In this document: piece after piece, positions 1,203 to 38,885 of the stretch | Layout: every line of letters begins with the position of its first letter | Numbering within the stretch: position 1 is the first letter of the stretch | Origin: a virus | Lineage: Duplodnaviria > Caudoviricetes | Virus record (IMG/VR): IMGVR_UViG_3300036786_000065 | Span: 1 to 40,499 of that record | Length of the DNA: 40,499 bases | Direction: 5' to 3' (one strand) | The notes under the pieces: model-generated | What the model saw: only the letters and a program-made list of their open reading frames with translations | Told to the model about the DNA's origin: nothing | Database searches by the model: none | Made by a program: the position numbers and the translations under genes

Positions 1203-1335
1203 GGAAGATCTCACGCAGAGGCGCAAAGGCGCAGAGGAAGACGCAAAGGAAGATTCAAGGATTTATCCATCAATTCTTGATTGAGCATTCTCCGCGTTTT
1301 GCTCTGCGCCTCCGCGCCTCTGCGTGAGATCTTCC
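1203..1335. repeat. Intergenic hairpin element, family B (GCGCAGAG-type 8-mers)
   Basis: GGAAGATCTCACGCAGAGGCGC... pairs with ...GCGCCTCTGCGTGAGATCTTCC; starts 3 nt after stop at 1199. Confidence 0.9.
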
Positions 1336-1425
1336 TCTTCCGGCTTGTTATCGCGCGACCGACATGCGCTAATATGCTCGGCCGGGACGGCTTCTAGAGA
1401 CATCCCCCGGCCACGACGACCGCGC

Positions 1426-1486
1426 ACCGTCAACGGCGACGGCCCGCCTCTGCCATCCCGGAGGTCGGGCCGTTGTCGTTGACGGT
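1426..1486 (+). terminator. Long hairpin between convergent modules (terminator or small RNA)
   Basis: ACCGTCAACGGCGACGGCCCG / CGGGCCGTTGTCGTTGACGGT; mismatches are G-U pairs on the + strand. Confidence 0.5.
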
Positions 1487-1738
1487 TCAGCCAGCCGACT
1501 TCGGCTTTCGCCCGGCCCCGACCCGTGCCCCGCCGGGTCGGGGCGCCCGGCGGGGCACGTTCAGGCCGCGCGCGACCCCGCACTCGAACAGCGCGTAGTC
1601 GACAACAGCCAGGGCGTTCGCCGGGTCGAAGGTCTTCCCCTCGGCGGCCAGCGATTGCCCCAGCCGCTTGAGGTAGCGCGTGAAGCTGGGTGAGCAGGTG
1701 AGTGTGATCGTCACGTTCGGTTTCTCCGACGCGCTCAT
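1487..1738 (-). CDS. Small putative DNA-binding protein (RHH-like N-terminus, GGARxGAGRKPK tail)
   Basis: ATGA overlap with upstream gene; GGAGG RBS; basic AT-hook-like C-terminus. Confidence 0.6.
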   Translation of the reverse strand: MSASEKPNVTITLTCSPSFTRYLKRLGQSLAAEGKTFDPANALAVVDYALFECGVARGLNVPRRAPRPGGARVGAGRKPKSAG

Positions 1739-6238: not shown

Positions 6239-6398
6239 GCCCACCGTCACCTCGCGCAAGCCGCGCCGCAAGCGCCCGATCATCACCACGGCCGTGCCGG
6301 CGTCGCGCTGGCCGGCCTGGACCGATCGGCCTCTCGTCGCCGTGTGCTCCGCGATCGCGCGGGCCGACCGGGCGGGAACGGCGGTGGCCCGTGGTTGA
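6231..6398 (+). CDS. Small basic hypothetical protein (55 aa, not in ORF track)
   Basis: AAGGAGG RBS before GTG; overlaps both neighbours. Confidence 0.55.
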   Translation: MAKPTVTSRKPRRKRPIITTAVPASRWPAWTDRPLVAVCSAIARADRAGTAVARG

Positions 6399-6684
6399 GA
6401 TCCTCTACGACGGCGACGGCCAGGCCGTGGCCCGCGTGCTCGACTACCGCGACGGCCTCCCCTCGGAGATCGAGTGGGACCCGCGCTACGACTCCGACCG
6501 GATCGAGGACCTCCGCGCCCAGCGCGACGAGCCCAGCGAATGGGCCTTCGACGACGACACCAACGAATGGCCCCCGCTCGACGCGTACGGGCCGCCCCCC
6601 GCCGAGGCTGATCCCACCGGCCCGTCCGTCGAGGACGAGGCGTGGTGGGCCGCCGAGACGACCCGCGAGCTGGCCCTGGCCTGA
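6391..6684 (+). CDS. Acidic hypothetical protein
   Basis: 97 aa, Asp/Glu/Trp-rich; coupled to upstream ORF. Confidence 0.6.
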   Translation: MVEILYDGDGQAVARVLDYRDGLPSEIEWDPRYDSDRIEDLRAQRDEPSEWAFDDDTNEWPPLDAYGPPPAEADPTGPSVEDEAWWAAETTRELALA

Positions 6685-6693
6685 AGACTTTTT

Positions 6694-6798
6694 GCCACAG
6701 AGCACACAGAGGGCCAAAGAGGGGAAAACGAGAAATACCGGAATTTCGATATTCCTGAATTTCTCATTTCTCTCGGTGCCCTCTGTGTCCTCTGTGGC
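6694..6798. repeat. Intergenic hairpin element, family B (CACACAGAG-type 9-mers)
   Basis: GCCACAGAGCACACAGAGGGC / GCCCTCTGTGTCCTCTGTGGC around an AT-rich centre. Confidence 0.85.
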
Positions 6799-6829
6799 CA
6801 ATCCCCTCTTACCCCGGGAGATCCCGATC

Positions 6830-8656: not shown

Positions 8657-9729
8657 CCACGCCAGACCTCCAATTCTGGGATGCCCTGCCGCGCGAGGCT
8701 CGCAACGAGCTGCCTGGTAATGCCTGCGTGCTGCTGGCGGCGATCGAGGGCATGCGCCGCCAGCGCGGCGTCGAGACCTTCGAGGCCACGGATGAGCAGC
8801 TCGCGCGGGCCTGCGGTCGGTCGGTCTACTTCGTGGCTCGCGCGCTCCCCCACCTGCGCGGCCGGTGGGTGACCTGGGAGCGCGACCACGGCCGCCGGAT
8901 GCTCACGGTCGCCTACCGGCTCAAGAGCCTCGACGAGCCCAAACAGGCAGACGACTTCTCAGCGCATGCGCGTAGACCTATCAGCGCATGCGCGAAGACG
9001 TCTAAGCGCATGCGCGGAGACGTCTTCGCGCATGCGCTGATGCTCCCCTTTACAGAGGAACGCGCGGGGAATGCAGAGCTTTCTGAGAGCGAAGAAGAGC
9101 GTCCCGTCAGAGGGCCCGATTCGACCCCGGCGCATCCCGTTGCCCAGGACGGGACGGGACGGGACGATTTCGCTTCGCTCTCGGAGGGGGGACCCGAGCC
9201 GCCGCCGGCCATGTCGATCTCCGAGATCGAGGCGGAGCTGGCCGAGGCCGAGGCCGAGATCGCCAGGGCCGAGGCGAGCCGCCGGCCCGTGCCCGTCATG
9301 GCCCGGTTCCGCCGCACCGTCCTCCGCCGCGAACTGGAGGACCTCCGCAACCCCGCTCCGCCGCCCCGGCCGGCGACCACGCCCACCCCGACGCCCCTTC
9401 CCTCCCCCGCGCCGATGCGCCCCGGACCACCCCGGGCCGCCCCTCCCCCACCCAAGCTGATCGACGACGCGATCGCGTTCCTGGCCCTCGGCGAGCCCGG
9501 CCGGCGGCGGTTCGCCGTGGCCCTGGGCGAGGCCCTGGGCGAGCCCGACAACCCCCGGACGTTCGAGACCCTGTTCGACGCCGCAACGCTTTTGCGGCCC
9601 GACTGGCTCGCTGGCCGGGTACGCTACGCCTTGCGGCCGGGGATACGCGTCCCCGGGAATTACCTGGTCCAGACGCTCGCCAAGGACCTGCGGGTCAAAC
9701 GGCAGGCCCCAAACGGAGGACGACCATGA
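8653..9729 (+). CDS. Replication initiator (winged-HTH, lambda O/DnaD-like layout)
   Basis: HTH (TDEQLARACGRSVYFVARALPHL) followed by internal iteron array and Pro-rich linker. Confidence 0.7.
   Translation: MTTPDLQFWDALPREARNELPGNACVLLAAIEGMRRQRGVETFEATDEQLARACGRSVYFVARALPHLRGRWVTWERDHGRRMLTVAYRLKSLDEPKQADDFSAHARRPISACAKTSKRMRGDVFAHALMLPFTEERAGNAELSESEEERPVRGPDSTPAHPVAQDGTGRDDFASLSEGGPEPPPAMSISEIEAELAEAEAEIARAEASRRPVPVMARFRRTVLRRELEDLRNPAPPPRPATTPTPTPLPSPAPMRPGPPRAAPPPPKLIDDAIAFLALGEPGRRRFAVALGEALGEPDNPRTFETLFDAATLLRPDWLAGRVRYALRPGIRVPGNYLVQTLAKDLRVKRQAPNGGRP
8959..9040. repeat. Iteron array, putative replication origin
   Basis: Palindromic GCGCATGCGC at 8962, 8984, 9006, 9028 (exact 22-bp period); last unit inverted. 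Confidence 0.8.
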
Positions 9730-10425: not shown

Positions 10426-11346
10426 ATGGCCAAGCTCGACTTTCGGCAGTTTCAGAGCGAGATCCTGTCACTCTACGGCCCGGGCTTACGCTCGCCCCGG
10501 ACCAAGAAAAAACTAGCCCATATCCTCGACTCCGTGGCGGCGTTACCTGGGGTCAAGACCACGGCCGACCTGACACCGGCCACCGTGGCGGCGTTCGTGT
10601 CGACGCTGGCGACGCTGAACCCGAACACGGCCAACGGCTACCTCGGGTACCTCCGACGGGCCTGCAACTACGCGGTCGCCCGGGGCTATCTCCGGGCCAG
10701 CCCGTTCGCCGCGCACAACTTCCGGTTGCGGCCCCGGCCGCCGGCCGACGCGCACCTCGGGGCCGACCAGGTGGGGGCGATCCTGGCCCATCTGGCGGGG
10801 TCGCGGGCGACCTGGGAGGAGCATCGGCTTTACGCGCTGATCGCGACCTTCGCGTTCACGGGCCTGCGGCGCGACGAGGGCCTTCGGCTTCGGGTCGCGG
10901 ACGTGGACCTCGCCAACCGGGTGATCCAGGTGGTGGACCGCGCCAGCTCACCACTGAAGACCGAGGGATCGGCCGCTCCGGTGCCGATCGCCGAGGTCCT
11001 GGCCGAGGTCCTGGCCGAGTGGCTCCCCCGCTCGGGCTCGCCCTGGGCGTTCCCGGGGATCACGCGGGTCGGTCCCTGGACGGGAGGACCGGCGGGCAAG
11101 CGCCCCCTGGACGAGGCCAAGGCGGCGGCCCTGGCGGCTGGGGTCGCTGGCCTGACGTTCCGGGGCTTGCGGCAGACCTGGGCGACGATGGCCGAAAGCC
11201 GATGGGGACTCTCGGAGCTGGTCGTGCAGCGCGTGCTCCGGCATGCGCGGCCACAGACCCAGCAGCTCTACCGCAAGGCCGACCTGCCGAACCTGACCGC
11301 GGCCGTCCGCGACCTCACGTTCCCCCCGGCCTCGCCCTTGCCCTGA
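10426..11346 (+). CDS. int: Tyrosine recombinase / phage integrase
   Basis: TGLRRDE, LKT, RGLR (in place of HxLR), LRH, TQQLY catalytic motifs. Confidence 0.92.
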   Translation: MAKLDFRQFQSEILSLYGPGLRSPRTKKKLAHILDSVAALPGVKTTADLTPATVAAFVSTLATLNPNTANGYLGYLRRACNYAVARGYLRASPFAAHNFRLRPRPPADAHLGADQVGAILAHLAGSRATWEEHRLYALIATFAFTGLRRDEGLRLRVADVDLANRVIQVVDRASSPLKTEGSAAPVPIAEVLAEVLAEWLPRSGSPWAFPGITRVGPWTGGPAGKRPLDEAKAAALAAGVAGLTFRGLRQTWATMAESRWGLSELVVQRVLRHARPQTQQLYRKADLPNLTAAVRDLTFPPASPLP

Positions 11347-14924: not shown

Positions 14925-15263
14925 ATGGGCATCCTCCCCGATCGCCGCCCTCCCGACCTCCCCGGCCAGCTCCTCATCCCCGGCCGGGGCTTCCCCCGCC
15001 CGCGCCGCAACCGCACGGCCCGCGTCGCCTACCGGGTGAGCTGGTGTGGGTTCAGCGCGATCGTCGTCGAGGTGACACCGGGCCGAGCCGCGACGCGATT
15101 CCTTCAATCCATGCGTCCCCAGTACCGGCACGAGATCCAATTCACCGCGATCCGCGTGGTCCGCGCCCCCGATCACGACGGCTGGGCCAGGCTCCAGCCG
15201 GTGGGCTCGGTCCATGCCGGGGGCGACGTGCCGGCTACCGATCGACCGGACACACTTGTCTGA
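14925..15263 (+). CDS. Hypothetical protein
   Basis: AAGGA RBS, 112 aa. Confidence 0.55.
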   Translation: MGILPDRRPPDLPGQLLIPGRGFPRPRRNRTARVAYRVSWCGFSAIVVEVTPGRAATRFLQSMRPQYRHEIQFTAIRVVRAPDHDGWARLQPVGSVHAGGDVPATDRPDTLV

Positions 15264-15335
15264 GTGGTCAGTTTTCAGTGAATGCCAATGCGTGAATCCG
15301 TCGGACTGACAACTGACAACTGACAACTGATAACT
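15263..15335. repeat. Intergenic hairpin element, family A
   Basis: Spans from one stop codon to the convergent stop codon; loop contains AATGCGT. Confidence 0.9.
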
Positions 15336-15591
15336 AAAGCCCTCGCTCGGCCGCCCACTCCTGATTCCATTCCCGGTGCAGGTCCGATCGCCGGGGCGTG
15401 TCCCGCCAGGCGTCGAGCAGCTCCGCCAGCTCGCCGGCCAGGCCGGGCTCGACCTCGGCCAGGGCGATCGGCCCGAGGTCCACGCGCGGCGAGTCCTCGT
15501 CCTCGGTCGCGCGGATCCAGAGCCGGCCCTCGCGGTCGAGCGCGAGGTGGGCCGTCATGAGCCAGGGATCGAGCCAGGAGGTGTGGGTCAC
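15334..15591 (-). CDS. Hypothetical protein
   Basis: GTGA coupling with methyltransferase. Confidence 0.6.
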   Translation of the reverse strand: MTHTSWLDPWLMTAHLALDREGRLWIRATEDEDSPRVDLGPIALAEVEPGLAGELAELLDAWRDTPRRSDLHREWNQEWAAERGL

Positions 15592-17630: not shown

Positions 17631-18137
17631 ATGGCCGTGTCGCACAGGAAGGCCCAGCAGTCGCGCCGGTTCCGCCCCATGCGCGTGCCCAGCAGCCCGA
17701 CCTCGCAACTCCGCGCCGACGTCGGCCAGGGCGAAGGCGACCCGCTCCCCGCCGCCGAGGCCTTGGCCCGCGCCGGGCGGCATCACCCGCTGCGCGTGGT
17801 TGGCGAACGCGCGATCGACCGCGGCCTGGTCGAGGCCGTCTACGGCGGCAAGCTGGTCGAGATCCAGAGCGAGGGCTACCTGACGCCGGCCAACGGCGAG
17901 ACCGTCGCCTACCTGGTCTCGGCCCCCGCCTTCGCCGCGATCTGCGCCCGGGCCTACGCGGGCGACGACACCGACACCGACACCGGCACGGGCACCGCCG
18001 CCGGTGCCAACTCGCCGCCCGATCCCGCTCCAGTCCCAGCCTCCGGGGGACGATTACCTGACGCGACGCCGCGCCGGGAAAATCGGGGGCGACGCCGCCC
18101 CTCCCCAACCCCCCTCGAGTTGTCAGTTGTTAGTTAG
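17631..18137 (+). CDS. Hypothetical protein
   Basis: 168 aa; stop supplied by the adjacent heptamer element. Confidence 0.45.
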   Translation: MAVSHRKAQQSRRFRPMRVPSSPTSQLRADVGQGEGDPLPAAEALARAGRHHPLRVVGERAIDRGLVEAVYGGKLVEIQSEGYLTPANGETVAYLVSAPAFAAICARAYAGDDTDTDTGTGTAAGANSPPDPAPVPASGGRLPDATPRRENRGRRRPSPTPLELSVVS

Positions 18138-18237
18138 TAGTTGTCAGTTGTCAGTTCTCAGTTCTCAGTTCTCAGTGGATGCCATTGAATGCGTTCACTG
18201 ACAACTGACAACTGACAACTGGAAACCACGGACAACT
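18118..18237. repeat. Intergenic hairpin element, family A (longest)
   Basis: CAGTTGT/CAGTTCT arrays, loop GGATGCCATTGAATGCGTTC, ACTGACA arrays; between convergent genes. Confidence 0.9.
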
Positions 18238-18781
18238 ACCTGATCCTCGCGTCGCGGCGCACGACCTGGCCCAGGATCACGACGGGCTCACCGTCGTCGT
18301 CGCGGAGGAGCGGGTCGGCCGCCTTGCCCTTCGATCGCTTCCACCGCAGGACCGCCTCGAAGCGCGTGAGCGAGCGCTTGAGCGGCCCCCAGTCGAGCGT
18401 GATCGTGAAGTGCTCCGGCTCGTCGAGGTAGCGGCCGGTCCTGTCGAGCGCGTTCCCCTCATAGCTCGGGTCGGCCCCGGCCCGGCCCCAGCGCGGCTCC
18501 TCGTCGGCATCGTCCTCGGGCTGGATCAGGGCCAGGCCGAGCGCGGCGGCCCCGAGCGGCGTGAAGGTCGCGACCCGCGCCCCGCCCGCCGGCCGCCACG
18601 TCTCCAGCCACTGGTCGCGGAGGAGCCCGGCGATCGCCCGCCCGGCCGCGCCCCGGGGGGTGCCGATCGCCCCGGCGCGGCGCAGGGAGGCGACCGTGGA
18701 ATAGCAGCGCGCGCCCGAGCGGATCGCGTCGAGTACCTGGCGCCGGGCCGCGTCGTCGCCGGGGCAATCGGGCGTGGGCAT
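18236..18781 (-). CDS. Hypothetical protein, possible winged helix
   Basis: ATG 18781 after AAGG; AGLLRDQWLE...TFTPLG pattern. Confidence 0.5.
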   Translation of the reverse strand: MPTPDCPGDDAARRQVLDAIRSGARCYSTVASLRRAGAIGTPRGAAGRAIAGLLRDQWLETWRPAGGARVATFTPLGAAALGLALIQPEDDADEEPRWGRAGADPSYEGNALDRTGRYLDEPEHFTITLDWGPLKRSLTRFEAVLRWKRSKGKAADPLLRDDDGEPVVILGQVVRRDARIR

Positions 18782-25400: not shown

Positions 25401-25513
25401 GAGTAGGTCTCAGTTGTCAGTGGTCAGTTGTCAGTATGCAAATACGTTCGACTGACCACTGGCAACGGACCACCGAAAACCACCGACGACTGACCACTGA
25501 CAACTGACAACTC
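25401..25513. repeat. Intergenic hairpin element, family A
   Basis: Starts at capsid stop; loop TATGCAAATACGTTCG. Confidence 0.9.
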
Positions 25514-25534
25514 ACCACGCGAGGGCCCACGGCC

Positions 25535-26659: not shown

Positions 26660-26680
26660 GTTTCCCGAAGGGAAACCCGC

Positions 26681-27037: not shown

Positions 27038-27062
27038 CCTGAGCCGCGGAGCGAACTGACCG

Positions 27063-28715: not shown

Positions 28716-28722
28716 CCCGCCG

Positions 28723-29184
28723 ATGCGTGGTGTTTATGAAGGTTCGATTCTCTGCAGCGCGCTGGCCGCGACCAAGACCGTGATCCTGATCACGGCCCCC
28801 TCCACGACGATCGTCGAGCTGCTCTCGGCGAGCATCACCGACGCCTCGAACGCGACCAACCAGCAGCTCGCGGCGCTCTGGCAAAAGGTCACCACGATCG
28901 GCTCGGCCGCCGGCACCAGCCTGACCCCGACCAAGACCGAGCAGGGCGACCAGGCCTCGGCCTCGACCGTGCTGGGCAACCTGACCGTCGAGCCGACCAC
29001 GTACACCACCAACACGGGCGGCGGCTACCGCGGGTTCCCCACGCTCGGCGGCTGGGAGTGGGCCCCGATCCCGGAGGAGCGGATCTACCTCGCGCCGTCG
29101 TCGGTGTGGGGCCTGCGCATCCTCACGTCGACCTGGACGGCGCAGGACACGATCGTCCGGTTCACCTACCGCGAGATCGGGTGA
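28723..29184 (+). CDS. Putative virion protein
   Basis: 153 aa Thr-rich beta protein, PEERI motif. Confidence 0.65.
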   Translation: MRGVYEGSILCSALAATKTVILITAPSTTIVELLSASITDASNATNQQLAALWQKVTTIGSAAGTSLTPTKTEQGDQASASTVLGNLTVEPTTYTTNTGGGYRGFPTLGGWEWAPIPEERIYLAPSSVWGLRILTSTWTAQDTIVRFTYREIG

Positions 29185-29261
29185 GGTTATTCATGGTGAT
29201 CGAACCGATTCCCGTTCCCACTCCCGTTCCCGTGCTCTCCCAACCCAGACAGGATTTCCCC

Positions 29262-29471
29262 ATGCTTCGCATCGTCCAGGCCCAGGGCGGTTTCATTGTC
29301 TACCGCGATCGCTGCCTGGTCGCCCGGGTCGAGTCGGCCGCCACGCCCGGCGAGCGCGTCGTGGACCTCACGCGCACGCTCACGGCCAGCGAGATGAAGG
29401 CCGTCGCCGACCTGGCCCTGTCCTACGTCGAGGTCGCACCCACTCCCGGACCGGCCCACCTCGTGAGCTGA
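29262..29471 (+). CDS. Small hypothetical protein
   Basis: AGGA RBS before ATG 29262. Confidence 0.5.
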   Translation: MLRIVQAQGGFIVYRDRCLVARVESAATPGERVVDLTRTLTASEMKAVADLALSYVEVAPTPGPAHLVS

Positions 29472-29484
29472 ACTGAGCCAAGCC

Positions 29485-29745
29485 GTGCAGCACTACTCGG
29501 CCGCCAACTATTACACCCCCGGCTGGGTCGCGCCCCGCGACCGGCTGCGCGACCCGTTTCCCCGGGCCAGGCGCCGCCGCGGCGCGGGCATCACCATCGG
29601 CACGGGGGGCGTTGTTGCGCCGGGCACCGGCCCCACGGCGTTTCAGGTCAAGACCGTGGCCTCGACGTCGTTCAGCGTCAAGGTCGTTTCGACCGGGCCG
29701 AGCGTGGCCGCGATCGGGGCCATCAAGATCGTGAGGTCCACCTGA
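29485..29745 (+). CDS. Small hypothetical protein
   Basis: 86 aa, ends 1 nt before next start. Confidence 0.55.
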   Translation: MQHYSAANYYTPGWVAPRDRLRDPFPRARRRRGAGITIGTGGVVAPGTGPTAFQVKTVASTSFSVKVVSTGPSVAAIGAIKIVRST

Positions 29746-29746
29746 G

Positions 29747-30583
29747 ATGGCCATCGAGCTCCCCATCGAGATCGGCGCGGACGTTTCCTACGTCCTCGAG
29801 ATCGACGACCTCAACGACGCCCAGGTCACCACCTACAACGGCACCGAGACGCTCACCTGCGCCTGCTGGCGGGGCGACGACCAGGCCGTCCTGTTCGCCC
29901 CGGCCGTGTCGTGGGCGACGGCCGCGCTCGGCCAGTTCAACTTCGCCGTCTCGGCCGCCCAATCGGGCACGCTCACGCCCGGCCGCTACAACCTCCAGTT
30001 GACGATCACCTCCGGCGGCGTGGCCCGCAAGAAGACCTTTGGCTGGCTGATCGTCAAGCCCTCCCCCGGCTCGGCGACGGCCCGGCCCGTCTACCAGACC
30101 TGGGATGAAACGAAGTTCTACGCCGGCAGTTGGCTGGAGAAGCTCCAGCGGCTCGACACCGACCAGACCGGGTTCGCCGAGGAGCGGGGCCGCGCGCGGG
30201 CCTCCTTCGAGCAGCTCCTGCACAACGCCTGGCGGGGCGACAACGTCGTCGTCCGCCAGACCCGGTTCGCGTTCCCCTACGGCGTCAACTGGGCCAACCG
30301 CCGCTCGCCCCTGCGGGACCCGCAGCTCATCACCTGGCTGGCCGCCAACCAGCTGCTGGTGACCGACGAGATCAAGGAGTGGTGCGCCTACGCCACGATC
30401 GCCCTGATCTGCCGCCGCCAAATCAACCCCATGAAGGACGACGGCTACGGCGCCGCGGCGTCCTGGTACGCGACCCGGGCCGACACCCTGGCCGCCACGC
30501 TCACGCCCGAGATCGACACCGACGGCGACGGCCTCGGCGATATCCCGATCCCGCTGGGCACGATCGACATGCTCAAGGGGTGA
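29747..30583 (+). CDS. Putative head-tail adaptor with N-terminal beta domain
   Basis: GRYNLQLTIT beta domain plus helical C-terminus (EIKEWCAYATIALI); synteny. Confidence 0.55.
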   Translation: MAIELPIEIGADVSYVLEIDDLNDAQVTTYNGTETLTCACWRGDDQAVLFAPAVSWATAALGQFNFAVSAAQSGTLTPGRYNLQLTITSGGVARKKTFGWLIVKPSPGSATARPVYQTWDETKFYAGSWLEKLQRLDTDQTGFAEERGRARASFEQLLHNAWRGDNVVVRQTRFAFPYGVNWANRRSPLRDPQLITWLAANQLLVTDEIKEWCAYATIALICRRQINPMKDDGYGAAASWYATRADTLAATLTPEIDTDGDGLGDIPIPLGTIDMLKG

Positions 30584-31049
30584 GGGCGAGGTCGGGAAGC
30601 ACGAACAGGCCATCGACCCAGGGCACGAAAGCGACTTTCAGCCCGGCGAACATCCGGGGGTGCCGCTCCATGCCGAGAGAGGTCCTGGCCTGGAAATCCC
30701 ATGGGAAGCTCACCACGAACATCCCGCTCCGGTCGCGGGCCCCGAGCAGGTCGTGGTAGCGCGAGCCGCCGACGACGATGTAGGCCGCCCGCTTCTGGTA
30801 GACACGCATCATGTCGTCCTGGGAGGTCAGGACGGCAGCGACGATCGCGTCGAAATCCACGCGCACGCATTCGACGCGGCGAATCTCCTCGAAGCCCGAG
30901 GAGGCCCCGAGTCGCCTCAGCAGGCGGAACAGGACCCGCTGGAGCCAGGGCCATCGCCCGGCCGGATTGACGCGCAGCTGATCCACCAGCTCCCTCCGCT
31001 CGGTGATCTCCTGGGGGCGATAGATCGGGACCACGCTCGGCGTCGACAT
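30573..31049 (-). CDS. Antisense-oriented hypothetical gene (moron-like)
   Basis: Fills the gap between + strand structural genes; GAGG RBS. Confidence 0.65.
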   Translation of the reverse strand: MSTPSVVPIYRPQEITERRELVDQLRVNPAGRWPWLQRVLFRLLRRLGASSGFEEIRRVECVRVDFDAIVAAVLTSQDDMMRVYQKRAAYIVVGGSRYHDLLGARDRSGMFVVSFPWDFQARTSLGMERHPRMFAGLKVAFVPWVDGLFVLPDLALTP

Positions 31050-31080
31050 CGTCGGCCCTCTCACTGGGAAGTCACACGCG

Positions 31081-31776
31081 ATGGCCCAGATCAAGCATAG
31101 CGACTTCGGCTTTCGCCTGGAAGGGATCGAGCCGATCCACGATCCGGCGTGGACCGCGGCCCCCGATCGGGCGCGCCGCGCCTACTGGACCGAGGCCGCC
31201 GCGTTCGGATTGCGGACCCGCCAGCGAGGCATCATCCGGGGCCTGGGCGCCAACGGCCAGCCCGTCCGCAACATCCTGCCCTCCACCCGGAAACGCCGAC
31301 GCTCGGCCATGACCAAGTCCGGCAAGGGCTCGCCGTCGGCCGCCCCGCTCGTGCCCGGGTACACGCTCTCGCGGACCCACCAGTACCTGCGAGCCATCGT
31401 CCAGAGGGACGGCGTCTGGTTCCAGTGGCGGCATGATCCCAGGACCGGCGTGAACTGGGGTCAGATCCTCCAGTACCAGGCCGAGCAGGGCCGCGACCAC
31501 TTCGGGTTCAGCGCCGAGGAGTGGGACGCGATCGTGACCCACATGGACGCCTGGTGGGCACGTCGCCGCCCGCGCTACGCCCCGGTCGAGCCGGCCGCCC
31601 CGGTCGTCCCCATCCGCGTCTACCGGCCCGCTCCGATCCAACCAACCCGGATCAAGCCGGCGCGGATCGTGGCCATGCCGGCCGGCGGCGTCTACACCGC
31701 GGGGCCGAGCTCCAGCGGCGGCAGCTCCCCGTTCTCGGACCTCACCCACTTCAGCGGGTTTCGCCAGTTCCGATGA
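31081..31776 (+). CDS. Putative neck/tail completion protein
   Basis: Basic 231 aa ORF; synteny. Confidence 0.5.
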   Translation: MAQIKHSDFGFRLEGIEPIHDPAWTAAPDRARRAYWTEAAAFGLRTRQRGIIRGLGANGQPVRNILPSTRKRRRSAMTKSGKGSPSAAPLVPGYTLSRTHQYLRAIVQRDGVWFQWRHDPRTGVNWGQILQYQAEQGRDHFGFSAEEWDAIVTHMDAWWARRRPRYAPVEPAAPVVPIRVYRPAPIQPTRIKPARIVAMPAGGVYTAGPSSSGGSSPFSDLTHFSGFRQFR

Positions 31777-32369
31777 GCGCCAACTTCATCGACCTCACCC
31801 CGCTGGACCGCGTCGCCGGCCACTTCCGCAAGGTGGCCCGGGGGTTCTCGCTGGCCGAGATCCGGCCGACGCTGGTGAAGGTCGAGAAGGTGTTCGTCGA
31901 GGACAACCGGATCGGCGTCCTGAAGGGCGTGGATTGCGACGATCAGCCCGCGCCCAGGCTCAAGTACCGCGACGGCAAGGGCCGCAAGACCTCGCCCCGC
32001 AAGGTCGGGTTCGGCAAGGCCACCGGCCGACTCCGCGAGACCAGCCTCGGCGGGTCGAAGTACGCGGCCGCGCGGGGGCCGCGGCTGGCCCCGTTCGGCG
32101 TCCGCTCGCGGGTGATCACCAACTACGCGACGGGGCACGGCCAGGACGGCCGCGACTACGTCGTGGTCGGGGCCTGGCGGAACGTCGTGTCCCGGGACAA
32201 CGTCGAGTTCCTCCCGGCCCACTTCAACGGCCCGACCTGGACCGGCCGCGGCCACAAGGCGCTCTTGCCCCGCTACAACCTGGCCGGCCACCTCCGCGCG
32301 TGGGGCCGCGACCAGGCCCGCCAGATCGTGTACGCCGACGTCTCCGCGCTCGTGACGAAGGGGCCCTGA
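31773..32369 (+). CDS. Putative virion morphogenesis (neck) protein
   Basis: ATGA coupling; basic, HFNG...LPRY pattern. Confidence 0.55.
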   Translation: MSANFIDLTPLDRVAGHFRKVARGFSLAEIRPTLVKVEKVFVEDNRIGVLKGVDCDDQPAPRLKYRDGKGRKTSPRKVGFGKATGRLRETSLGGSKYAAARGPRLAPFGVRSRVITNYATGHGQDGRDYVVVGAWRNVVSRDNVEFLPAHFNGPTWTGRGHKALLPRYNLAGHLRAWGRDQARQIVYADVSALVTKGP

Positions 32370-32373
32370 CCCG

Positions 32374-32877
32374 ATGGCACGCAACGATCGCCTCGCGATC
32401 CCCTCCTCGGTCCACTCGGTCGTGTTCCGGCGGCTCGACAAGATCGTCCGCCGCGACGCCGTCGTGGCCCGGACGTTCGCGGTGATCCGCTCGTGGGAGG
32501 GTAAGGACGACGACCACGCCGGCTTCGCCCCCGACGAGTGCCCGGCCCTGCGGTTGACGCCCGGGGCTGGGCCGGACGGCTGGTATGGGCCATCAGGCTT
32601 CGAATCGACCCTGACCGTCGATTGCGAGGTCTACGCGATCGGCACCAACGCCGAGGACATCCTCGACCTGGTGCAGGTCGTGCGGCTCGCGCTCTACCCG
32701 GCCGATCCGGCGGCCTGTCTCGCGATCCAGCAGGCCCTCAAGGCCGACGGCGCGAGCGAGACCGGCCAGCCCCTGCTCGGCACACCCGGGGTCGCGGTCG
32801 CGCTCAACGGCGACGCCGCCATGATGCAGGCCACGTTTGCAATTCAGATCGACACGCTCAACACCCTCAACGCATAA
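32374..32877 (+). CDS. Putative tail terminator
   Basis: DECPALRL motif, size, directly before tail tube. Confidence 0.65.
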   Translation: MARNDRLAIPSSVHSVVFRRLDKIVRRDAVVARTFAVIRSWEGKDDDHAGFAPDECPALRLTPGAGPDGWYGPSGFESTLTVDCEVYAIGTNAEDILDLVQVVRLALYPADPAACLAIQQALKADGASETGQPLLGTPGVAVALNGDAAMMQATFAIQIDTLNTLNA

Positions 32878-32889
32878 GGTGGCCCAGAC

Positions 32890-33891
32890 ATGGCCAGTCG
32901 TCGCTTCGTCCGCGCCTGCATCGAGTCCTCGTTCGGCGTGGCCAAGACCACGCCCACGCTCGGCACCGACGCCTGTGTGCTCCGCCTCCCCGACGCCAAC
33001 GCGTTCAAGGCCGAGATGACGCCCTCGATCGAGTACATCCCCTACGGCGGGGGCCGCACGACGTATGCGGATTCCGTGGCCGACGTGGCGCTCGTGCAGG
33101 GCTCGGTCTCGACCTATCTCTATCCCGGGATCTGGACCACGCTCCTGACCAACTGGGCCCTGACGCTGATCAACACGGGCCGCACCACGCCCTGGGTGAC
33201 GACCGACGCCTCGTCCGTGATGCCGGCGGGCGACCTGGCCAGCATGTGCTTCTACCACGGCTTCCAGAACCCCGATGCGTCGTATGTCCGCGAGAAGTGG
33301 CTCGGGTCCAAGAGCACGAAGGGTTCGATCGAGGGTTCGGCCAAGGACCGGAAGATCAAGTTCACGAGCGACTTCATCGGCATCAAGGAGGTGACCAACG
33401 CCTTCATCTCGGGCGAGGCCTCGGCCCCGGACGCCACCGAGTTCCCCGCGCCGGCCGAGACCGACTACCCGACCGCCCCCTACCTGTTCAGCCACGTCGG
33501 CAGCGGCACCGGCACCATGAAGATCGGGTCGGCGCGGACCCAGATCGAATCGTTCAAGTTGAGTTGGGAGAACGCGATCTACCCCGACCCCTACGAGAAG
33601 CAGGTCATCCAGCTCGCCCGGTTCACGGGCCGCAAGGTGATGCTCGAGGTCGGCCTCCGCTACAAGATCAGCCCCGACGACCTCGCGAGCTTCCAGAGCC
33701 AGGCCGCGCAGGCGTCGCAGTTGATCCTCGACAACGGCGCGCACACGTTCAACCTCCAGATGAACGGCGTCAACAAGATCACCGGCCGCGAGCGGGACTA
33801 CACCGACGGCAACGAGTACGCGACCAAGATCACGGTCACGAACTTCTGGGATGCGTCGGCCGGCTCGGACGTGGTGCTCACCCTCACTTGA
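32890..33891 (+). CDS. Major tail tube protein
   Basis: ESSFGVA N-terminus, SFKLSWEN, GRKV; before tape measure. Confidence 0.75.
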   Translation: MASRRFVRACIESSFGVAKTTPTLGTDACVLRLPDANAFKAEMTPSIEYIPYGGGRTTYADSVADVALVQGSVSTYLYPGIWTTLLTNWALTLINTGRTTPWVTTDASSVMPAGDLASMCFYHGFQNPDASYVREKWLGSKSTKGSIEGSAKDRKIKFTSDFIGIKEVTNAFISGEASAPDATEFPAPAETDYPTAPYLFSHVGSGTGTMKIGSARTQIESFKLSWENAIYPDPYEKQVIQLARFTGRKVMLEVGLRYKISPDDLASFQSQAAQASQLILDNGAHTFNLQMNGVNKITGRERDYTDGNEYATKITVTNFWDASAGSDVVLTLT

Positions 33892-33899
33892 TCCCAGAC

Positions 33900-34013
33900 G
33901 GGGATTTCACGCGGAGGCGCGGAGGCGGAGAGAGAAAAGAAGAACAAATTCTTGATTGAGAATTGATTCTCGATCTCCCTCTCTCCGCCTCCGCGCCTCC
34001 GCGTGAAATCCCC
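33900..34013. repeat. Intergenic hairpin element, family B
   Basis: 35-bp perfect inverted arms; loop contains AATTCTTGATTGAG. Confidence 0.92.
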
Positions 34014-34039
34014 TTTCTCTTGTCGTCGAGGGCCCACCC

Positions 34040-35947
34040 GTGGCCATGACCGAAGATACGATCCGCCTGAAGCTCGCGATCGCCTCGGAGGAGGCCGTGA
34101 CGGCGGCGGCGCGGACCGAGACCCTGAAGGCCAAGCAGGACCTGCTGGGCCGCGCCCTGGACGAGGGTGTCATCAAGGGAGACCGCTACAACCAGCTGAT
34201 GGCCAAGTCCTCGGCCGAGCTGGCCAAGGCCGAATCGGCGGCGGCGCGGGCGGCGGCCCTCACGGAGAAGTTGACGGTCGCCCAGAACGCCAACGCGGCG
34301 GCGGCCGAGAAGGCGGCGAAGAGCACGGGCGGCACGGTCAACGCCATCCAGGGCACGAGCCGCGCGGTCCAGGACTTCACGTCCAGCGCGCTCAACGGCG
34401 GGTTCGTCCAGGGGCTCAACTCGATCACGAACAACGTCGATCAGATGGCCCAGGGCTTCGGCCGGATGGGCGGCATGACGGCCCAGGCGGCGACGAACCT
34501 CGGCTCGATCGCGACGTTCGGCGTCGTGGGGTTGCAGCTCGCGATCGTCGCCTTGACCCCGATCATCAAGGGCCTCCTCGATCAGTTCGGCCTGTTCAAG
34601 GGGGCCGTCGACCCGGCGGCCACCGAGGTCGAGAGATTGAAAACGAAGATCAAGGAGCTGGGGGACAAGCCGATCAAGCTCCAGGTCGACCGCAACGAGC
34701 TGGCGGCGGCCGAGGCCGACCTGAAGCGGTTGACGGCGGCGCGGGAGGCGTACAACCGGATCGCCGGCCTCAAGAGCGAAGACGAGAAGGAAAGCGAGGC
34801 GAGCGTCACCAAGGTGTTTGGCCAGGACCACATGGCGCTGGGATCGCTGGCGAAACCGGAGATCGCGAAGGCCGAGGCCGGCGCCCGGGCCGCGCAGGCC
34901 GAGAAGGTCGCCAAGCTGGAAAAGGAGCTGGCTGACCTCGTCAAGGCAGGCTACAGGCCGTGGGAATTGACCGAGGCGAAGCAGGCCATCGAGGACGCCA
35001 AGAACGACACGAAGCCAGTCGCCGCCGCCATCGCCACGGCCAAGGACCGCGTCGGCACGCTCGTCGGCGGGGCCACCGGAGCGGCCAAGCCCGGTCAGGT
35101 CGGGGACGCCAACGAAGCCCTCGCCCAGGCCGCCGAAAAGGCCGGGCGACACGATATCGCGTTCAAGGTGCGCATGGCGAGCCCCACGGGTCGGGCCGAG
35201 TCCAACACCGCCAACGACGAGATGGAGCGCCAGAACGAGGACCTGGCCGTCGACCAGCGTCTGCGCGATAAGACGCGGGAGGAGAACGAGAAGGCCCAGG
35301 AGGAACTCGACAAGCAGGAAGACGAGAAGATCGAGAAGGGCGGCAAGGCCCTCTCCAAGCAGAGCAAGGACGCTCGAGAGACACAGAAGCATGTCTCGAA
35401 GGACGCGACGAACGAACTCAAGAAGATGCAGGCTGACGCCCAGGCGAATGCCAAGCTCACCGCGGCCGGCGGCACGATGGACGAGGAGATTGGCGCGTTC
35501 CTGAACATCCAGGACCAACGCCGCCACAGCCTCGACGGCGTCACGGGTGCCACCCGCAAACGGATGATCGCCGAGGCCGCGAAGGCCGGCACCCCGATCT
35601 TGACGGCGGAAGAGGCCAACGCCCAGGCCGAACAGGCGGCCATGAACGCCATGTCGTCGACCACGATGCGCGACAAGGACGGCAACGAGCTCAACGCCGA
35701 ACAGCGGCGCGCGGCCGCCAAGGCGATGGTGGGCGACGCCAACGCCGACCTCTCCCGCCGGCAGATGGAATTGCAGGGCCAGGGGCTCAACCAGGCGGAG
35801 CGCGGCGTGGCCATCACCGATCAGTTGATCGGCCTGATTGACCAGGTCGGACAGCGGACCCTCCGTCTCGAACAGGGCATGAATCGGAACGCCCAGCGCG
35901 CCCAGCAGGTGAGTCGTTCGAACCTCCGTCAGCGTGGCGGCAACTGA
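34040..35947 (+). CDS. Tape measure protein
   Basis: Long Ala/Lys/Glu helical ORF with hydrophobic segment; after tail tube. Confidence 0.8.
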   Translation: MAMTEDTIRLKLAIASEEAVTAAARTETLKAKQDLLGRALDEGVIKGDRYNQLMAKSSAELAKAESAAARAAALTEKLTVAQNANAAAAEKAAKSTGGTVNAIQGTSRAVQDFTSSALNGGFVQGLNSITNNVDQMAQGFGRMGGMTAQAATNLGSIATFGVVGLQLAIVALTPIIKGLLDQFGLFKGAVDPAATEVERLKTKIKELGDKPIKLQVDRNELAAAEADLKRLTAAREAYNRIAGLKSEDEKESEASVTKVFGQDHMALGSLAKPEIAKAEAGARAAQAEKVAKLEKELADLVKAGYRPWELTEAKQAIEDAKNDTKPVAAAIATAKDRVGTLVGGATGAAKPGQVGDANEALAQAAEKAGRHDIAFKVRMASPTGRAESNTANDEMERQNEDLAVDQRLRDKTREENEKAQEELDKQEDEKIEKGGKALSKQSKDARETQKHVSKDATNELKKMQADAQANAKLTAAGGTMDEEIGAFLNIQDQRRHSLDGVTGATRKRMIAEAAKAGTPILTAEEANAQAEQAAMNAMSSTTMRDKDGNELNAEQRRAAAKAMVGDANADLSRRQMELQGQGLNQAERGVAITDQLIGLIDQVGQRTLRLEQGMNRNAQRAQQVSRSNLRQRGGN

Positions 35948-35950
35948 CCC

Positions 35951-38740
35951 ATGCCCAGCGCCCTGCTCCCCACCATCACGCTCACCGTCGCCGGCACCAC
36001 GTTTGACCGCGTGGCCGGCCAGGTCGCGCTCGAGCGGCTCATGTCGTTCTCACGCGACGGCGGCACGCCCACGCTCGACTGGTCGATCCTGGGCGGCGCG
36101 ATGCAGCCCGGCACCGACCCGTTCCGGGGCAAGACGATCCAACTCACGATCGACATCGGCGGCGGCCCCGTCACCGTGTTCGCCGGCGACTGCCGCAAGC
36201 GACCGGTGAACTACACCCGGGACGGCGGCTGGCACCGGCGGTACACGGCCCTCGGCCTCCGCGACCGCATGGACCGCGTCGCGTTCACGGGCGACGACAG
36301 CACGGACACGTCTTACTTCAATTTGGACCCGCAAGACCGCAACTACAACGCGGCCCGCGCCGGCCGGACGGTGGGCGAGATCCTCCGCCAGTGCCTCGAC
36401 AACTCGGCCAACGCGGCCGCGCTGATTTCCCTGGGAATCGGCGGCTACACGTCGAGCGGATCGGGCGCCACGGCGACGGCGACGCTCTCCGGCTCCTCGG
36501 TCGGCACGGTCGTGGTGGCCACGGGGGGCACCGGCTACACGTCGGCCCCGACCGTGATCCTGCGGGGCGGAGGCGGCTACGGGGCGAAGGCCACGGCCAC
36601 CGTCGTCGCCGGCGTCGTCACGGCGATCGCCGTCACCACGGGCGGCCACGGCTACGCGACGGCGCCCGAGGTCTGGATCTCGTCGCTGCCCGCCGACACG
36701 CTGAACGACCTGGCCGCGCTCACCACGATCTATCCCGCGCCGGTGCGGATCGGTGGCGAGCGGCTGGGCTCGGCCATCGAGAGCGCGCTCAAGGAGCTGG
36801 CCCCGAACTCGTGGATGCACGTCGACCACGGCACCACGCACCTGCGGTTCTTCGACCTGAGGGGCCTGGGCCGGCCCTACGCCGCGTTCATCGACACGCC
36901 GGGGACCGGCGCGAAGGCCGAGGCCACCGTGGTGGCGGGCGTGATCACGGCCTGGTCGGTCACCTCGGGCGGGGCGGGTTACGACAGCGCCCACCCCCCG
37001 GCCGTGCTGATCCTCGACTCCAGCGGCTCCGGGGCACTCGCGACGGCGACCGTCGTCTCGGGAGCAGTCACAGCGGTGACCGTCACGGCCGGCGGCACGG
37101 GGTATTCCCAGCCCGTCACGCTCACGATGGGCACCGACCCGATCGACGTGGCGGGCGTGGATTACGCCACCGCCGACGATGCCTGCTTCCAGCGGGTGAT
37201 CGTGCGCGGGGCGGAGCTCATCACGGGGCTTTACTTCGACGACGCGGTGCCGCCCGGCGGCACCACGGGCGACAACGGCCTCACCCACCTCTACGCGCAC
37301 GACGGCCTCACCCTCGCCCAGGCGCTCGCGCGGTGGAAGCTGGGCGACTGGACCAACCCGCTGGTCGACGGCGGCCAGGCGTCGGCGGCGGCGGCGATCA
37401 ACACGACCACCCACGCCGTGTCGTCGCTCACCCTGGGCAACAGCGGCTACGGCTACACGAGCACGCCCGCCGTGCGGATCACGGGCGGCGGCGGCACCGG
37501 GGCCACGGGCCACGTCACGATGGCCGGCGGCGCGGTGGCCACGATCGTGCTCGACCTCGTGGGCACGGGCTACACCAACGCGCCCACGGTCACGATCGAC
37601 AGCCCCACCGGCGCGGGCGGCGACGCGGGCACCTGCGCCTGCCCCTCGACCACCCAGATCGTGGTCACCAGCTCCGAGCCGGGCAAGACCTGGCCGGCCA
37701 ACTACTGGGACCAATCGGCCACCGGCCGCAAGGGCGAGGTCGTGGTCTCGATCCAGCTCACCACGGGCATCACCTCGAAGGTCCGCCTGCCGGTCCTCAC
37801 CAACACGTCGCTCGCGGCCGGCGGCACGTCCACGCTCAACCTGGGGGGCGCCCTGCCCGCCACCACCTACACGAGCTACACCCTGATCGGCACGGCCGGC
37901 GGCGCCAGCAACGTCTACCGGCATTTCGGCCTGTCCAACACCGACATGGCCCCGAAGCTGCGGCGCAAGTTCCCCCGGCCCACGCTCTGGCACAACAGCG
38001 ACGGCTCCTACGACCAGCTCGTCAACTTTCCCGTGGCCAGCGTCCTGTTCTCGGCCAACGGCCTGCCGCCCTACGCCGAGCTGCCGATCGGGATCACGAT
38101 CGACACGACCACGTCCACGTTCCTGACCGATCAGCCGGTGGTCTGCCTGTTCGGCAACCCCGCGAACCTGCGAGCCGGCGGCGCGGCCGTCGACGGCATC
38201 GGCATCGTCCGCGCCCTGCTCCCGATCGCGACGGGCCAACTGCAAAGTATCTGGCCGCCCAACTCGGGCGGCTCGCCGGTCTACGGCGGCACCTCGCACG
38301 CGATCGACGGCCTCACCGACACCCTGACGGTCACGATCCCCTCGTGGCGCGACGACAATTCGACCAACAACATGCTGGGCTACGCGGCCGACCTGTTCGA
38401 CACCGTCTCCGACGTGGCGCAGGAGCTGACCGTGCCCTGGCTCGGCATCAACCTGGCCGTGCTGGTGCCGGGCCTGGCCGTGAACCTGACGGGCCACGGC
38501 TACACCACGGGCCTGGAAGCGGCGAAGCTCCCCGTGCTCCACGGCGAGCTGGCGTTCAAGCGGAACACGCCCCGGTTCACCACGGTCCTGAAAGCTTCAT
38601 CGCGCCGCGCCCACCACGCCGCCGCGCAGTACGAGCACCCGCCGGCCACCGGCTTGCAGCTCGGGTTCGCGATGGGATCGGGTGAAGGGTTCGTGGGCGG
38701 CCTGGGCTTCGATGTTACGGGTGACCTTAACGCGGTTTAA
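35951..38740 (+). CDS. Large tail tip/baseplate protein with GGxGYxxxPxV modules
   Basis: 929 aa after tape measure; repeated GTGYTSAPTV-like units. Confidence 0.75.
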   Translation: MPSALLPTITLTVAGTTFDRVAGQVALERLMSFSRDGGTPTLDWSILGGAMQPGTDPFRGKTIQLTIDIGGGPVTVFAGDCRKRPVNYTRDGGWHRRYTALGLRDRMDRVAFTGDDSTDTSYFNLDPQDRNYNAARAGRTVGEILRQCLDNSANAAALISLGIGGYTSSGSGATATATLSGSSVGTVVVATGGTGYTSAPTVILRGGGGYGAKATATVVAGVVTAIAVTTGGHGYATAPEVWISSLPADTLNDLAALTTIYPAPVRIGGERLGSAIESALKELAPNSWMHVDHGTTHLRFFDLRGLGRPYAAFIDTPGTGAKAEATVVAGVITAWSVTSGGAGYDSAHPPAVLILDSSGSGALATATVVSGAVTAVTVTAGGTGYSQPVTLTMGTDPIDVAGVDYATADDACFQRVIVRGAELITGLYFDDAVPPGGTTGDNGLTHLYAHDGLTLAQALARWKLGDWTNPLVDGGQASAAAAINTTTHAVSSLTLGNSGYGYTSTPAVRITGGGGTGATGHVTMAGGAVATIVLDLVGTGYTNAPTVTIDSPTGAGGDAGTCACPSTTQIVVTSSEPGKTWPANYWDQSATGRKGEVVVSIQLTTGITSKVRLPVLTNTSLAAGGTSTLNLGGALPATTYTSYTLIGTAGGASNVYRHFGLSNTDMAPKLRRKFPRPTLWHNSDGSYDQLVNFPVASVLFSANGLPPYAELPIGITIDTTTSTFLTDQPVVCLFGNPANLRAGGAAVDGIGIVRALLPIATGQLQSIWPPNSGGSPVYGGTSHAIDGLTDTLTVTIPSWRDDNSTNNMLGYAADLFDTVSDVAQELTVPWLGINLAVLVPGLAVNLTGHGYTTGLEAAKLPVLHGELAFKRNTPRFTTVLKASSRRAHHAAAQYEHPPATGLQLGFAMGSGEGFVGGLGFDVTGDLNAV

Positions 38741-38885
38741 CCGCCAAGACGCCAGGACGCCAAGGAAGAGAAGACAAGAGAAGAGAAGCCGAGAAGCAAT
38801 CGAATAGCCATTTCTTGATATTTGCTCTTCTTCTCTTCTTCTTGTCTTGTCTTCTCTTCCTTGGCGTCCTGGCGTCTTGGCGGTT
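38739..38885. repeat. Intergenic hairpin element, family B
   Basis: 41-bp perfect inverted arms (38739-38779 / 38845-38885) overlapping the TAA stop. Confidence 0.93.

What the first reader, a model, noticed from the sequence alone, without database searches (positions are those of the whole stretch)
1203..38885. Ten stop-codon-anchored hairpin elements made of inverted tandem-repeat arrays punctuate the genome
Seen: ten intergenic elements (1203, 4817, 6694, 14224, 15263, 18118, 25401, 26582, 33900, 38739) of 50-150 bp. Each has a tandem-repeat arm, an AT-rich centre and the reverse-complement arm, with up to 41 bp of perfect pairing. Nine begin or end within about 10 nt of a stop codon, several overlapping it. 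Six lie between co-transcribed genes, including after the capsid, tail tube and tail tip genes, and none has a U-tract. Inference: they are not simple terminators. They may be RNA processing or stability signals that set subunit stoichiometry, or a non-autonomous mobile element that targets gene ends. From memory (unverified), similar arms flank four-helix-bundle (TIGR02436) and GxxExxY (TIGR04256) genes in bacterial genomes. If so, these could be empty cassettes of that poorly described system that colonised a phage.
Basis: partly seen in the sequence, partly recalled or inferred. Interest (0 to 1): 0.85.

Follow-up and report, generated by a model that had tools for sequence, protein, structure and literature searches.

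The report
Empty hairpin cassettes colonising a phage
Ten mirror-image repeat hairpins sit in the gaps between this soil phage's genes, nine of them at a stop codon; their arms match those that enclose two small orphan genes in its likely host family and such elements come, go and swap at the same junctions in related phages, so they are likely gene-less copies of a little-described mobile cassette rather than tuned expression signals.

Summary
All ten elements are real (9 long hairpins against 0 in 12 shuffles). The window is a circular phage-plasmid whose host is probably an Isosphaeraceae planctomycete.

They form two classes. Six have 7-base arms that match only the flanks of host four-helix-bundle genes (TIGR02436/PF05635). 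Four have 8-9-base arms; three of these tie to GxxExxY genes (TIGR04256/PF13366), E9 only through E1. The phage carries neither gene. One host bin holds a single arm family in three states: gene-filled, empty in the chromosome, empty in a phage contig.

In related phages the same junction is empty, or holds a 7-mer element with another unit, a 9-mer element or an unrelated palindrome, even at 93% tube-protein identity. Copies in the window share unique centres, which suggests they were copied as empty units. Hairpins favour the transcribed strand in only 6 of 18 cases, so a stoichiometry signal is unlikely.

Stop-anchoring probably reflects the only free slot, between stop codon and ribosome-binding site. 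The mobiliser is inferred, and no target duplication was found. Paired heptamer arrays are published for Xanthomonas; the cargo link was not found in 10 searches. This scan noted the system before on other DNA.

The parts
1203..1335 (.). E1, 8-mer class (unit CGCAGAGG), 3 nt after the stop of gene 888-1199, convergent gap; shares a 14-nt centre word with E9
   Evidence: arm matches the flanks of GxxExxY locus L102
4817..4866 (.). E2, 7-mer class, short and asymmetric (10-bp perfect stem), between two minus-strand genes, 64 nt from the nearest stop
   Evidence: arm matches 4 IVP loci and no GxxExxY locus
6690..6802 (.). E3, 8-9-mer class (CACAGAGG-like), 5 nt after the stop of 6391-6684
   Evidence: arm matches the flanks of 4 GxxExxY loci, including L108, L103 and L079
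14224..14297 (.). E4, 7-mer class (AGTTGTC / ACAACTG), begins directly after the stop of 13972-14223; shares its centre with E5 and E6
15263..15336 (.). E5, 7-mer class, weakly paired, overlaps the stop codons of both convergent neighbours
18118..18238 (.). E6, 7-mer class with the longest left array (8.4 units); right end overlaps the stop of minus-strand gene 18236-18781
25403..25516 (.). E7, 7-mer class, 2 nt after the major capsid stop; this junction is 13-25 nt long in relatives L002, L003, L010 and L027 and holds other 7-mer units in L008, L013, L021 and L028
26582..26660 (.). E8, 7-mer class, overlaps the stop of 26286-26582
33900..34013 (.). E9, 8-mer class (CGCGGAGG), 35-bp perfect stem, 8 nt after the tail tube stop; tied to the GxxExxY class only through its likeness to E1
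   Evidence: no hit to the 61 cargo loci at E<0.01
38736..38888 (.). E10, 8-9-mer class (CGCCAAGA), 41-bp perfect stem whose left arm contains the TAA of gene 35951-38740; member of a host family that encloses a GxxExxY gene in L368

Best explanation
The ten hairpins are likely gene-less, non-autonomous members of two small host-borne cassette families, taken up by a resident phage-plasmid and probably copied onward as empty units. SHOWN: the full 7-mer form encloses a four-helix-bundle gene (TIGR02436/PF05635) and the full 8-10-mer form a GxxExxY PD-(D/E)xK nuclease-family gene (TIGR04256/PF13366); full and empty forms of one arm family coexist in one host bin; orthologous phage junctions switch between empty and several element types; window copies share unique centres. 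INFERRED, step by step: (1) a host-encoded protein acting in trans, most likely the cargo protein of the matching class, recognises the paired arms and a copy is inserted by nicking and repair (about 40%; another host enzyme or plain recombination covers the rest); (2) insertions survive almost only in the 0-4 nt between a stop codon and the next ribosome-binding site, or between convergent genes, which makes them look stop-anchored without targeting (about 65%); (3) afterwards the arrays change length by slippage, and the two arms of a copy are kept complementary by hairpin-templated correction; (4) the transcribed hairpin may stabilise or get the mRNA cut as a side effect, but holds no fixed job.
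For: Class-specific arm match: the six 7-mer elements each hit 3-4 of 31 IVP loci and 0 of 30 GxxExxY loci; E1 and E3 hit 1 and 4 GxxExxY loci and no IVP locus. Period-7 flanks at 20 of 31 IVP loci (controls 4 of 59) and inverted arms at 17 of 31 (0 of 59); period 8-10 at 17 of 30 GxxExxY loci (5 of 56) and inverted arms at 24 of 30 (0 of 56). E10 matches 10 of 81 family genomes, with 28 matches in G051; 9 of 10 fetched G051 regions hold an empty E10-type hairpin, and in L368 such arms enclose a GxxExxY gene over 637 bp. G001 holds one arm family filled (L089), empty on four other contigs (L186, L188-L190) and twice in its phage contig L018. No cargo gene in the window, in L001-L047 or in L375-L399. 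Capsid 3' site: 7 of 33 rows labelled 7-mer need 7 changes, at least 5 forced by starred branches. L389 and L391 (93% tube identity) differ at the junctions examined. Shared centres: E1/E9 14 nt, E4/E6 9 nt, E10/L351 11 nt, each reached by 0 of 300 shuffles. In 18 E10-family copies the two arms of a copy are 90% alike, against 81% between copies. In empty phage junctions the ribosome-binding site starts 0-2 nt after the stop. Full IVP cassettes also occur in viral contigs: 26 of 40 loci have period-7 flanks, near-duplicates included.
Against: No movement was observed, and no target-site duplication could be seen in the closest filled/empty alignment. No cargo protein is known to be a transposase; PF13366 is listed as function unknown (PMC3424549, passage). 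E9 has no direct host match among 61 cargo loci, and E1 has one weak hit in 5 genomes. The E1/E9 and E4/E6 centres were not found inside a hairpin in 336 other loci or in two viral scans (0 of 63, 0 of 40), so the donor is unsampled. At the gltB-gltD junction, 6 of 58 scored loci carry cargo and 40 have none, but none of the 12 spacers is a clean empty hairpin. Two of the seven 7-mer labels in the tree (L001, L045) are weak, 12 of 21 periodic matches, and the one-clade test did not finish. In E10-family arms, one-sided changes (25) are as common as compensated ones (23). The host is inferred from capsid relatives in binned genomes.
Confidence: 0.6

Rival explanations
1. Deletion scars: only full cassettes move. 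Each site once received a gene-bearing cassette whose cargo was later deleted between the arms, and the empty forms are immobile.
For: L129 shows an internally deleted GxxExxY cassette, and L146 arm-like remnants, at a junction filled in relatives. Full cassettes occur in viral contigs. Broken cargo genes occur in hosts (L361).
Against: Unique centres shared between copies (E1/E9, E4/E5/E6, L018's pair, L186/L188/L190) would need repeated deletions with the same ends. No cargo remnant was found in the window. G051 has at least 9 empty E10-type copies against 3 GxxExxY matches.
Confidence: 0.2
2. Selected RNA stability or processing signals that set the ratios of virion proteins; the phage keeps or recruits them after highly expressed genes.
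For: They follow the capsid and tube genes. A plain GC hairpin occupies the post-capsid site in 14 of 33 relatives (labels by eye), and that site is filled in several phages that have few elements, so a stem-loop there may be favoured. Folding energies reach -106 kcal/mol.
Against: The site is empty in 12 of 33 relatives, including the nearest (L002, L027; weak support 83/57). The post-tube site has a 7-mer element in 2 of 25 loci, which are one near-identical pair. The transcribed strand folds better in only 6 of 18 elements. Five of the ten elements lie outside the virion operon.
Confidence: 0.1
3. Local products of mutation: polymerase slippage builds 7-8-base arrays in situ and template switching mirrors them, with no donor and no mobiliser.
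For: Array length varies freely (3-9 units), and units differ between phages at one site. Rehm et al. cite slippage as the proposed source of heptamer excess (PMC4692102, Discussion).
Against: E10's arms match a host consensus at nearly all of 24 positions and share an 11-nt centre with L351. Period tracks cargo class. All six 7-mer elements share one unit and polarity. Whole elements of about 95 nt are present or absent as a block.
Confidence: 0.05
4. Unusual intrinsic terminators.
For: All but one follow a stop codon; 3 of 3 convergent gaps are filled; E9 and E10 have T-rich tails.
Against: Loops of 14-63 nt and stems up to 41 bp do not fit the short-stem, short-loop pattern (established knowledge), and the scan called none. 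Four lie inside the virion operon, where the only promoter-like hits expected downstream were not found (0 in 20500-40499, a consensus scan that may not suit this host).
Confidence: 0.05

Closest known systems
Paired GGGAATC heptamer arrays of Xanthomonas and GGGGA(C/T)T arrays of Nostoc (Rehm et al. 2015, PMC4692102; passages and Discussion read)
   Same: Intergenic heptamer arrays, 70-75 inverted pairs per Xanthomonas genome, within 50 bp of stop codons, mostly between aligned genes, scarce between divergent genes, function unknown.
   Different: Other units, not G-quadruplex-type here; that paper has no mention of 'four helix' and reports no arrays on the Nostoc plasmids. It gives no cargo-bearing form and no phage.
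TAACTGA repeats of Beggiatoaceae, Cyanobacteria and Bacteroidetes (MacGregor 2015, PMC4679880; abstract and passages read)
   Same: The unit is one base from the window's CAACTGA; it lies just upstream of start codons, as the right arms do here; horizontal spread is suspected, with no mechanism.
   Different: Described as direct repeats (169 sets, one inverted) and read as translational control sites; here they are paired arms tied to IVP cassettes.
REPINs mobilised by RAYT transposases (Bertels and Rainey 2011, PMC3116915; passages read)
   Same: Works like them: short non-autonomous extragenic inverted doublets with a variable spacer, forming hairpins, with arms shared with the flanks of a protein-coding gene.
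   Different: The arms are tandem arrays, not REP palindromes, and the linked genes are PF05635 and PF13366, not HUH tyrosine transposases.
ORF-bearing intervening sequences of 23S rRNA (S23p / IVP, PF05635; family link and PMC10053308 passage; excision by RNase III recalled)
   Same: The same protein family enclosed by a long stem.
   Different: Located between protein genes, not in rRNA; the phage copies have no ORF; excision untested.
MITEs (recalled)
   Same: Short, non-coding, terminal inverted repeats, apparent dependence on a protein in trans.
   Different: No target duplication seen and no link to an IS-family transposase.

Membership tests
Repeat-armed IVP cassette (TIGR02436), empty form; E2, E4-E8 | Inverted 7-mer arms with a unit found flanking IVP genes, in the same polarity | tested here: met
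   L051, L052, L057, L062; L424
Repeat-armed IVP cassette (TIGR02436), empty form; E2, E4-E8 | No cargo gene between the arms, and position in a gene junction | tested here: met
Repeat-armed GxxExxY cassette (TIGR04256), empty form; E1, E3, E10 | Inverted 8-10-mer arms matching arms that enclose GxxExxY genes | tested here: met
Repeat-armed GxxExxY cassette, empty form; E9 | Direct match to arms that enclose a GxxExxY gene | tested here: inconclusive
   no hit at E<0.01 among 61 loci; tied to E1 by arm likeness and a 14-nt centre
Both cassette classes | Presence/absence at orthologous junctions | tested here: met
   for sites E7 and E9 and for related phages, not for the other eight window sites
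Both cassette classes | Mobilisation in trans by the cargo protein | not testable with these tools
   needs binding, cleavage and transposition assays
REPIN | Inverted doublet with spacer forming a hairpin in extragenic space | tested here: met
REPIN | Arms are short REP palindromes shared with the flanks of a RAYT gene | tested here: not met
   arms are tandem arrays shared with PF05635 and PF13366 genes; RAYT flanks in the hosts were not examined
MITE | Terminal inverted repeats around a short non-coding core | tested here: met
MITE | Target-site duplication | tested here: inconclusive
   none visible in 2 filled against 3 empty loci whose flanks are 72-88% identical; too diverged to exclude a short one
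23S rRNA intervening sequence | Lies inside an rRNA gene | tested here: not met
   between protein genes; no Rfam match in the window
23S rRNA intervening sequence | Cut out of the transcript by RNase III | not testable with these tools
   needs RNA end mapping or an in vitro assay
Intrinsic terminator | Short GC stem, 3-8-nt loop, U-tract | tested here: not met
   0 of 10 called; T-rich tails only at E9 and E10

The most novel reading that the evidence does not exclude
Four-helix-bundle (Avd-like) and GxxExxY nuclease proteins are the motors of an undescribed class of mobile element that uses no known transposase. Each recognises its own 7-mer or 8-10-mer inverted arrays, moves full and empty cassettes into stop-codon/ribosome-site junctions, and uses resident phage-plasmids as vehicles between hosts. 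This would account for much of the unexplained excess of heptamer repeats in bacteria.
Probability: 0.3. Interest if true: 0.9.

Novelty: new variant of a known kind. Interest (0 to 1): 0.62.

Why it matters
Heptamer repeats at bacterial gene ends have been described without a source or function (PMC4692102, PMC4679880), and PF13366 and PF05635 are widespread proteins of unknown role. Tying arm period to cargo class gives both a direct test: does each protein bind or cut its own arms, and does it move an empty element? A 40-kb phage with ten empty copies of both classes and no cargo, plus a phage group in which single junctions swap occupants, is a compact substrate for that test. It also warns against reading such hairpins after capsid or tube genes as designed terminators or stoichiometry signals.

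Tried and rejected
Rfam: no match in the window at gathering scores.

RNA evidence: no RNA holder was listed, so expression was not tested. The second run X2 covered only short pieces and gave no filled/empty variant.

Universal centre motif: two viral pattern scans returned 63 and 40 loci, none in a hairpin or array; rejected as chance hits. An exact paired-heptamer pattern matched 1 of 81 family genomes, being too strict.

IHF-like site: the E. coli IHF consensus (recalled, chosen after seeing the sequences) matched 5 places in the window at 1 mismatch, 4 of them in 8-mer-class centres (6 of 100 shuffles reached 5). It matched 3 of 4 phage centres and 7 of 23 others (shuffle mean 3.1). Kept only as a lead, because E1 and E9 are related copies.

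Strand bias for RNA folding: none. Plasmid collection: only short, weak hits for E9 and distant capsids. The single-protein tube scan found no locus. The one-clade test did not finish. One search used a wrong gltB frame and was redone; the arm count was mis-anchored and was redone.

Rows dropped: the capsid tree used 33 of 48 rows (7 duplicates, 5 without a stop in the locus, plus L024, L039 and L047). The gltB-gltD survey used 63 of 78 matches (6 second paralogues and 9 others, mostly partial, left out), 5 had no anchor, and its query came from a cargo-bearing genome. Cargo flank counts used the best-scoring loci only (31 IVP, 30 GxxExxY).

Literature: 10 searches found no paper linking the arrays to the cargo genes or reporting them in phages. 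The library lacks most subscription papers, and I read no supplements.
Full report
Setting. The window has a 151-nt terminal repeat, and a Logan contig joins its end to its start, so it is a circle of about 40.35 kb. It encodes ParA, ParB, a resolvase, a DNA methylase, a terminase large subunit, a capsid protein and a tail tube, which fits a phage-plasmid (inference). The nearest named capsid relatives are in Isosphaeraceae and Planctomycetales bins at 49-58% identity. The host family is therefore inferred, not shown.

All ten elements are present, with perfect stems of 7 to 41 bp. Nine hairpins score 17 or more, against none in 12 shuffles. Six elements use the heptamer AGTTGTC and its complement (E2, E4-E8); four use 8-9-base units followed by a purine-rich stretch and an AT-rich loop (E1, E3, E9, E10). 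Nine lie within -5 to +8 nt of a stop codon. Of the 25 gaps of 40 nt or more, 3 of 3 convergent, 7 of 19 co-directional and 0 of 3 divergent gaps are filled (my gene model). No element was called as a terminator, although E9 and E10 have T-rich tails. Rfam gave nothing.

The arms are those of host gene cassettes. In 81 genomes of the family of G001, the bin that holds relative L018, TIGR02436 matched in 40 and TIGR04256 in 58. Among the best-scoring loci, 20 of 31 IVP genes have period-7 flanks and 17 have inverted arms (controls 4 and 0 of 59). Of 30 GxxExxY genes, 17 have period 8-10 flanks and 24 have inverted arms (controls 5 and 0 of 56); only 1 has period 7. Each 7-mer phage element hits 3-4 IVP loci and no GxxExxY locus. 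E1 and E3 hit only GxxExxY loci; E9 and E10 hit none of these 61. A separate search tied E10 to a family in 10 of 81 genomes: 9 of 10 fetched G051 regions hold empty copies, and in L368 the same arms enclose a GxxExxY gene. Representative cargo proteins are PF05635, with a weak bAvd hit, and PF13366. The phage has neither gene. In G001 one arm family is gene-filled at gltB-gltD (L089), empty on four other contigs, and present twice in the phage contig; this depends on the binning being right.

Sites come, go and swap. After the capsid stop, 33 distinct rows split by eye into 7 with a 7-mer element, 14 with a plain hairpin and 12 with neither. The units differ in each case. Five labels are strong (16-20 of 21 periodic matches) and two weak. 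The tree needs 7 changes, at least 5 forced by starred branches, and the window's weakly supported nearest rows (L002, L027) have only about 25 nt to the same next gene. A tube-related phage group, 29-41% identical to the window's tube, gives closer pairs. L389 and L391 (93% tube identity) have a 7-mer against a 9-mer element at one junction, nothing against a 9-mer element before the tube gene, and a 7-mer element against a short spacer after it. Other members carry unrelated palindromes at the same junctions. In hosts, the gltB-gltD junction overlaps or is short in 40 of 58 scored loci, carries GxxExxY in 6 (one internally deleted) and a spacer in 12, none of them a clean empty hairpin. One G051 site lacks the element in genus relative G083. 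A strict detector finds 8 elements in the window's 40.5 kb and 19 in about 616 kb of 44 related loci, 31 of which have none (two contigs counted twice), so the window is heavily but not uniquely colonised. The window's heptamer pair also occurs at 11 loci on 10 other viral contigs, and full IVP cassettes occur in viral contigs (26 of 40 with period-7 flanks).

How it most likely works. Window copies share unique centres (E1/E9 14 nt, E4/E6 9 nt, E4/E5 7 nt), as do L018's pair and G001's empties, and E10 shares 11 nt with host copy L351. This points to copying of empty units (inference). The two arms of a copy are more alike than arms of different copies, 90% against 81%, but the transcribed strand folds better in only 6 of 18 elements. 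Symmetry therefore seems kept at the DNA level rather than selected in RNA (inference). Empty junctions have the ribosome-binding site 0-2 nt after the stop, so a harmless insertion must abut the stop. In three filled gltB-gltD loci the arm itself supplies gltB's stop, and in four the old gltB tail survives before gltD. I put 60% on empty mobile cassettes, 20% on immobile deletion scars, 10% on selected RNA signals, and 5% each on local mutation and termination. That the cargo protein is the mobiliser is about 40% and wholly untested. No target duplication was visible.

Relation to known systems. Paired heptamer arrays near stop codons are published for Xanthomonas (PMC4692102; passages and Discussion read), and a one-base variant of the unit for Beggiatoaceae (PMC4679880; abstract and passages), both without source or function. 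The elements work like REPINs (PMC3116915; passages) but fail membership, since the arms are tandem arrays and the linked genes are not RAYTs. PF13366 is listed as function unknown (PMC3424549; passage). PF05635 resembles Avd (PMC10053308; passage) and has been seen wedged into cas operons (PMC3936711; passage). PMC5524665 (passages) was irrelevant. Ten searches found no paper linking arrays to cargo or reporting them in phages; I read no supplements, and subscription papers are mostly absent from the library. Earlier notes of this scan describe the same cassette system in bacterial genomes; two look-ups found none for this phage or for phage capsid sites. What this window adds is a phage with both classes and no cargo, and junction-level turnover in related phages.

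Verdict. New variant of a known kind (non-autonomous hairpin elements) with an unknown mobiliser; interest 0.62.

Noticed in passing
window 8950-9041: An array of 3.9 copies of a 22-bp unit, each with a palindromic core, inside ORF 8728-9729 whose N-terminus looks helix-turn-helix-like; candidate replication iterons or parS sites of the phage-plasmid.
   Followed up: no
window 1-151 and 40349-40499: Terminal repeat plus a contig spanning the join show a circle, although the record is classed 'linear, 34% complete'. The fibre-like gene from 39053 runs across the join to 396.
   Followed up: yes
window 400-891 and 888-1199: Two coupled small ORFs share a short motif (..LxFSSxAGWPAI..), suggesting a duplication; no Pfam hit.
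   Followed up: partly
window 10426-11346: A 306-aa ORF upstream of parA that resembles a recombinase by eye, with a 35% hit in L013; no Pfam or PHROG match for the overlapping 460-aa frame, and this frame itself was not scanned.
   Followed up: no
L396 4729-4943: Heptamer arms in a related phage enclose a short hydrophobic ORF with an internal stop on the opposite strand, a possible third cargo type.
   Followed up: partly
L344 1560-1808; L387 upstream of the tube gene: Repeat arms with an unrelated palindromic element nested inside, so the hairpins may themselves be landing sites.
   Followed up: no
L407, L421, L435, L436, between left arm and IVP start: Promoter-like hexamers seen by eye between the left arm and the cargo gene; full cassettes may carry their own promoter.
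   Followed up: no
L394 near 357: An 11-nt word identical to the centre of E8 lies in the spacer before the tube gene, without arms; remnant or chance.
   Followed up: partly
window 1253-1282, 33945-33957, 38808-38820: IHF-like words (recalled consensus) in the loops of E1, E9 and E10; a post hoc lead for a bending protein between the arms.
   Followed up: partly
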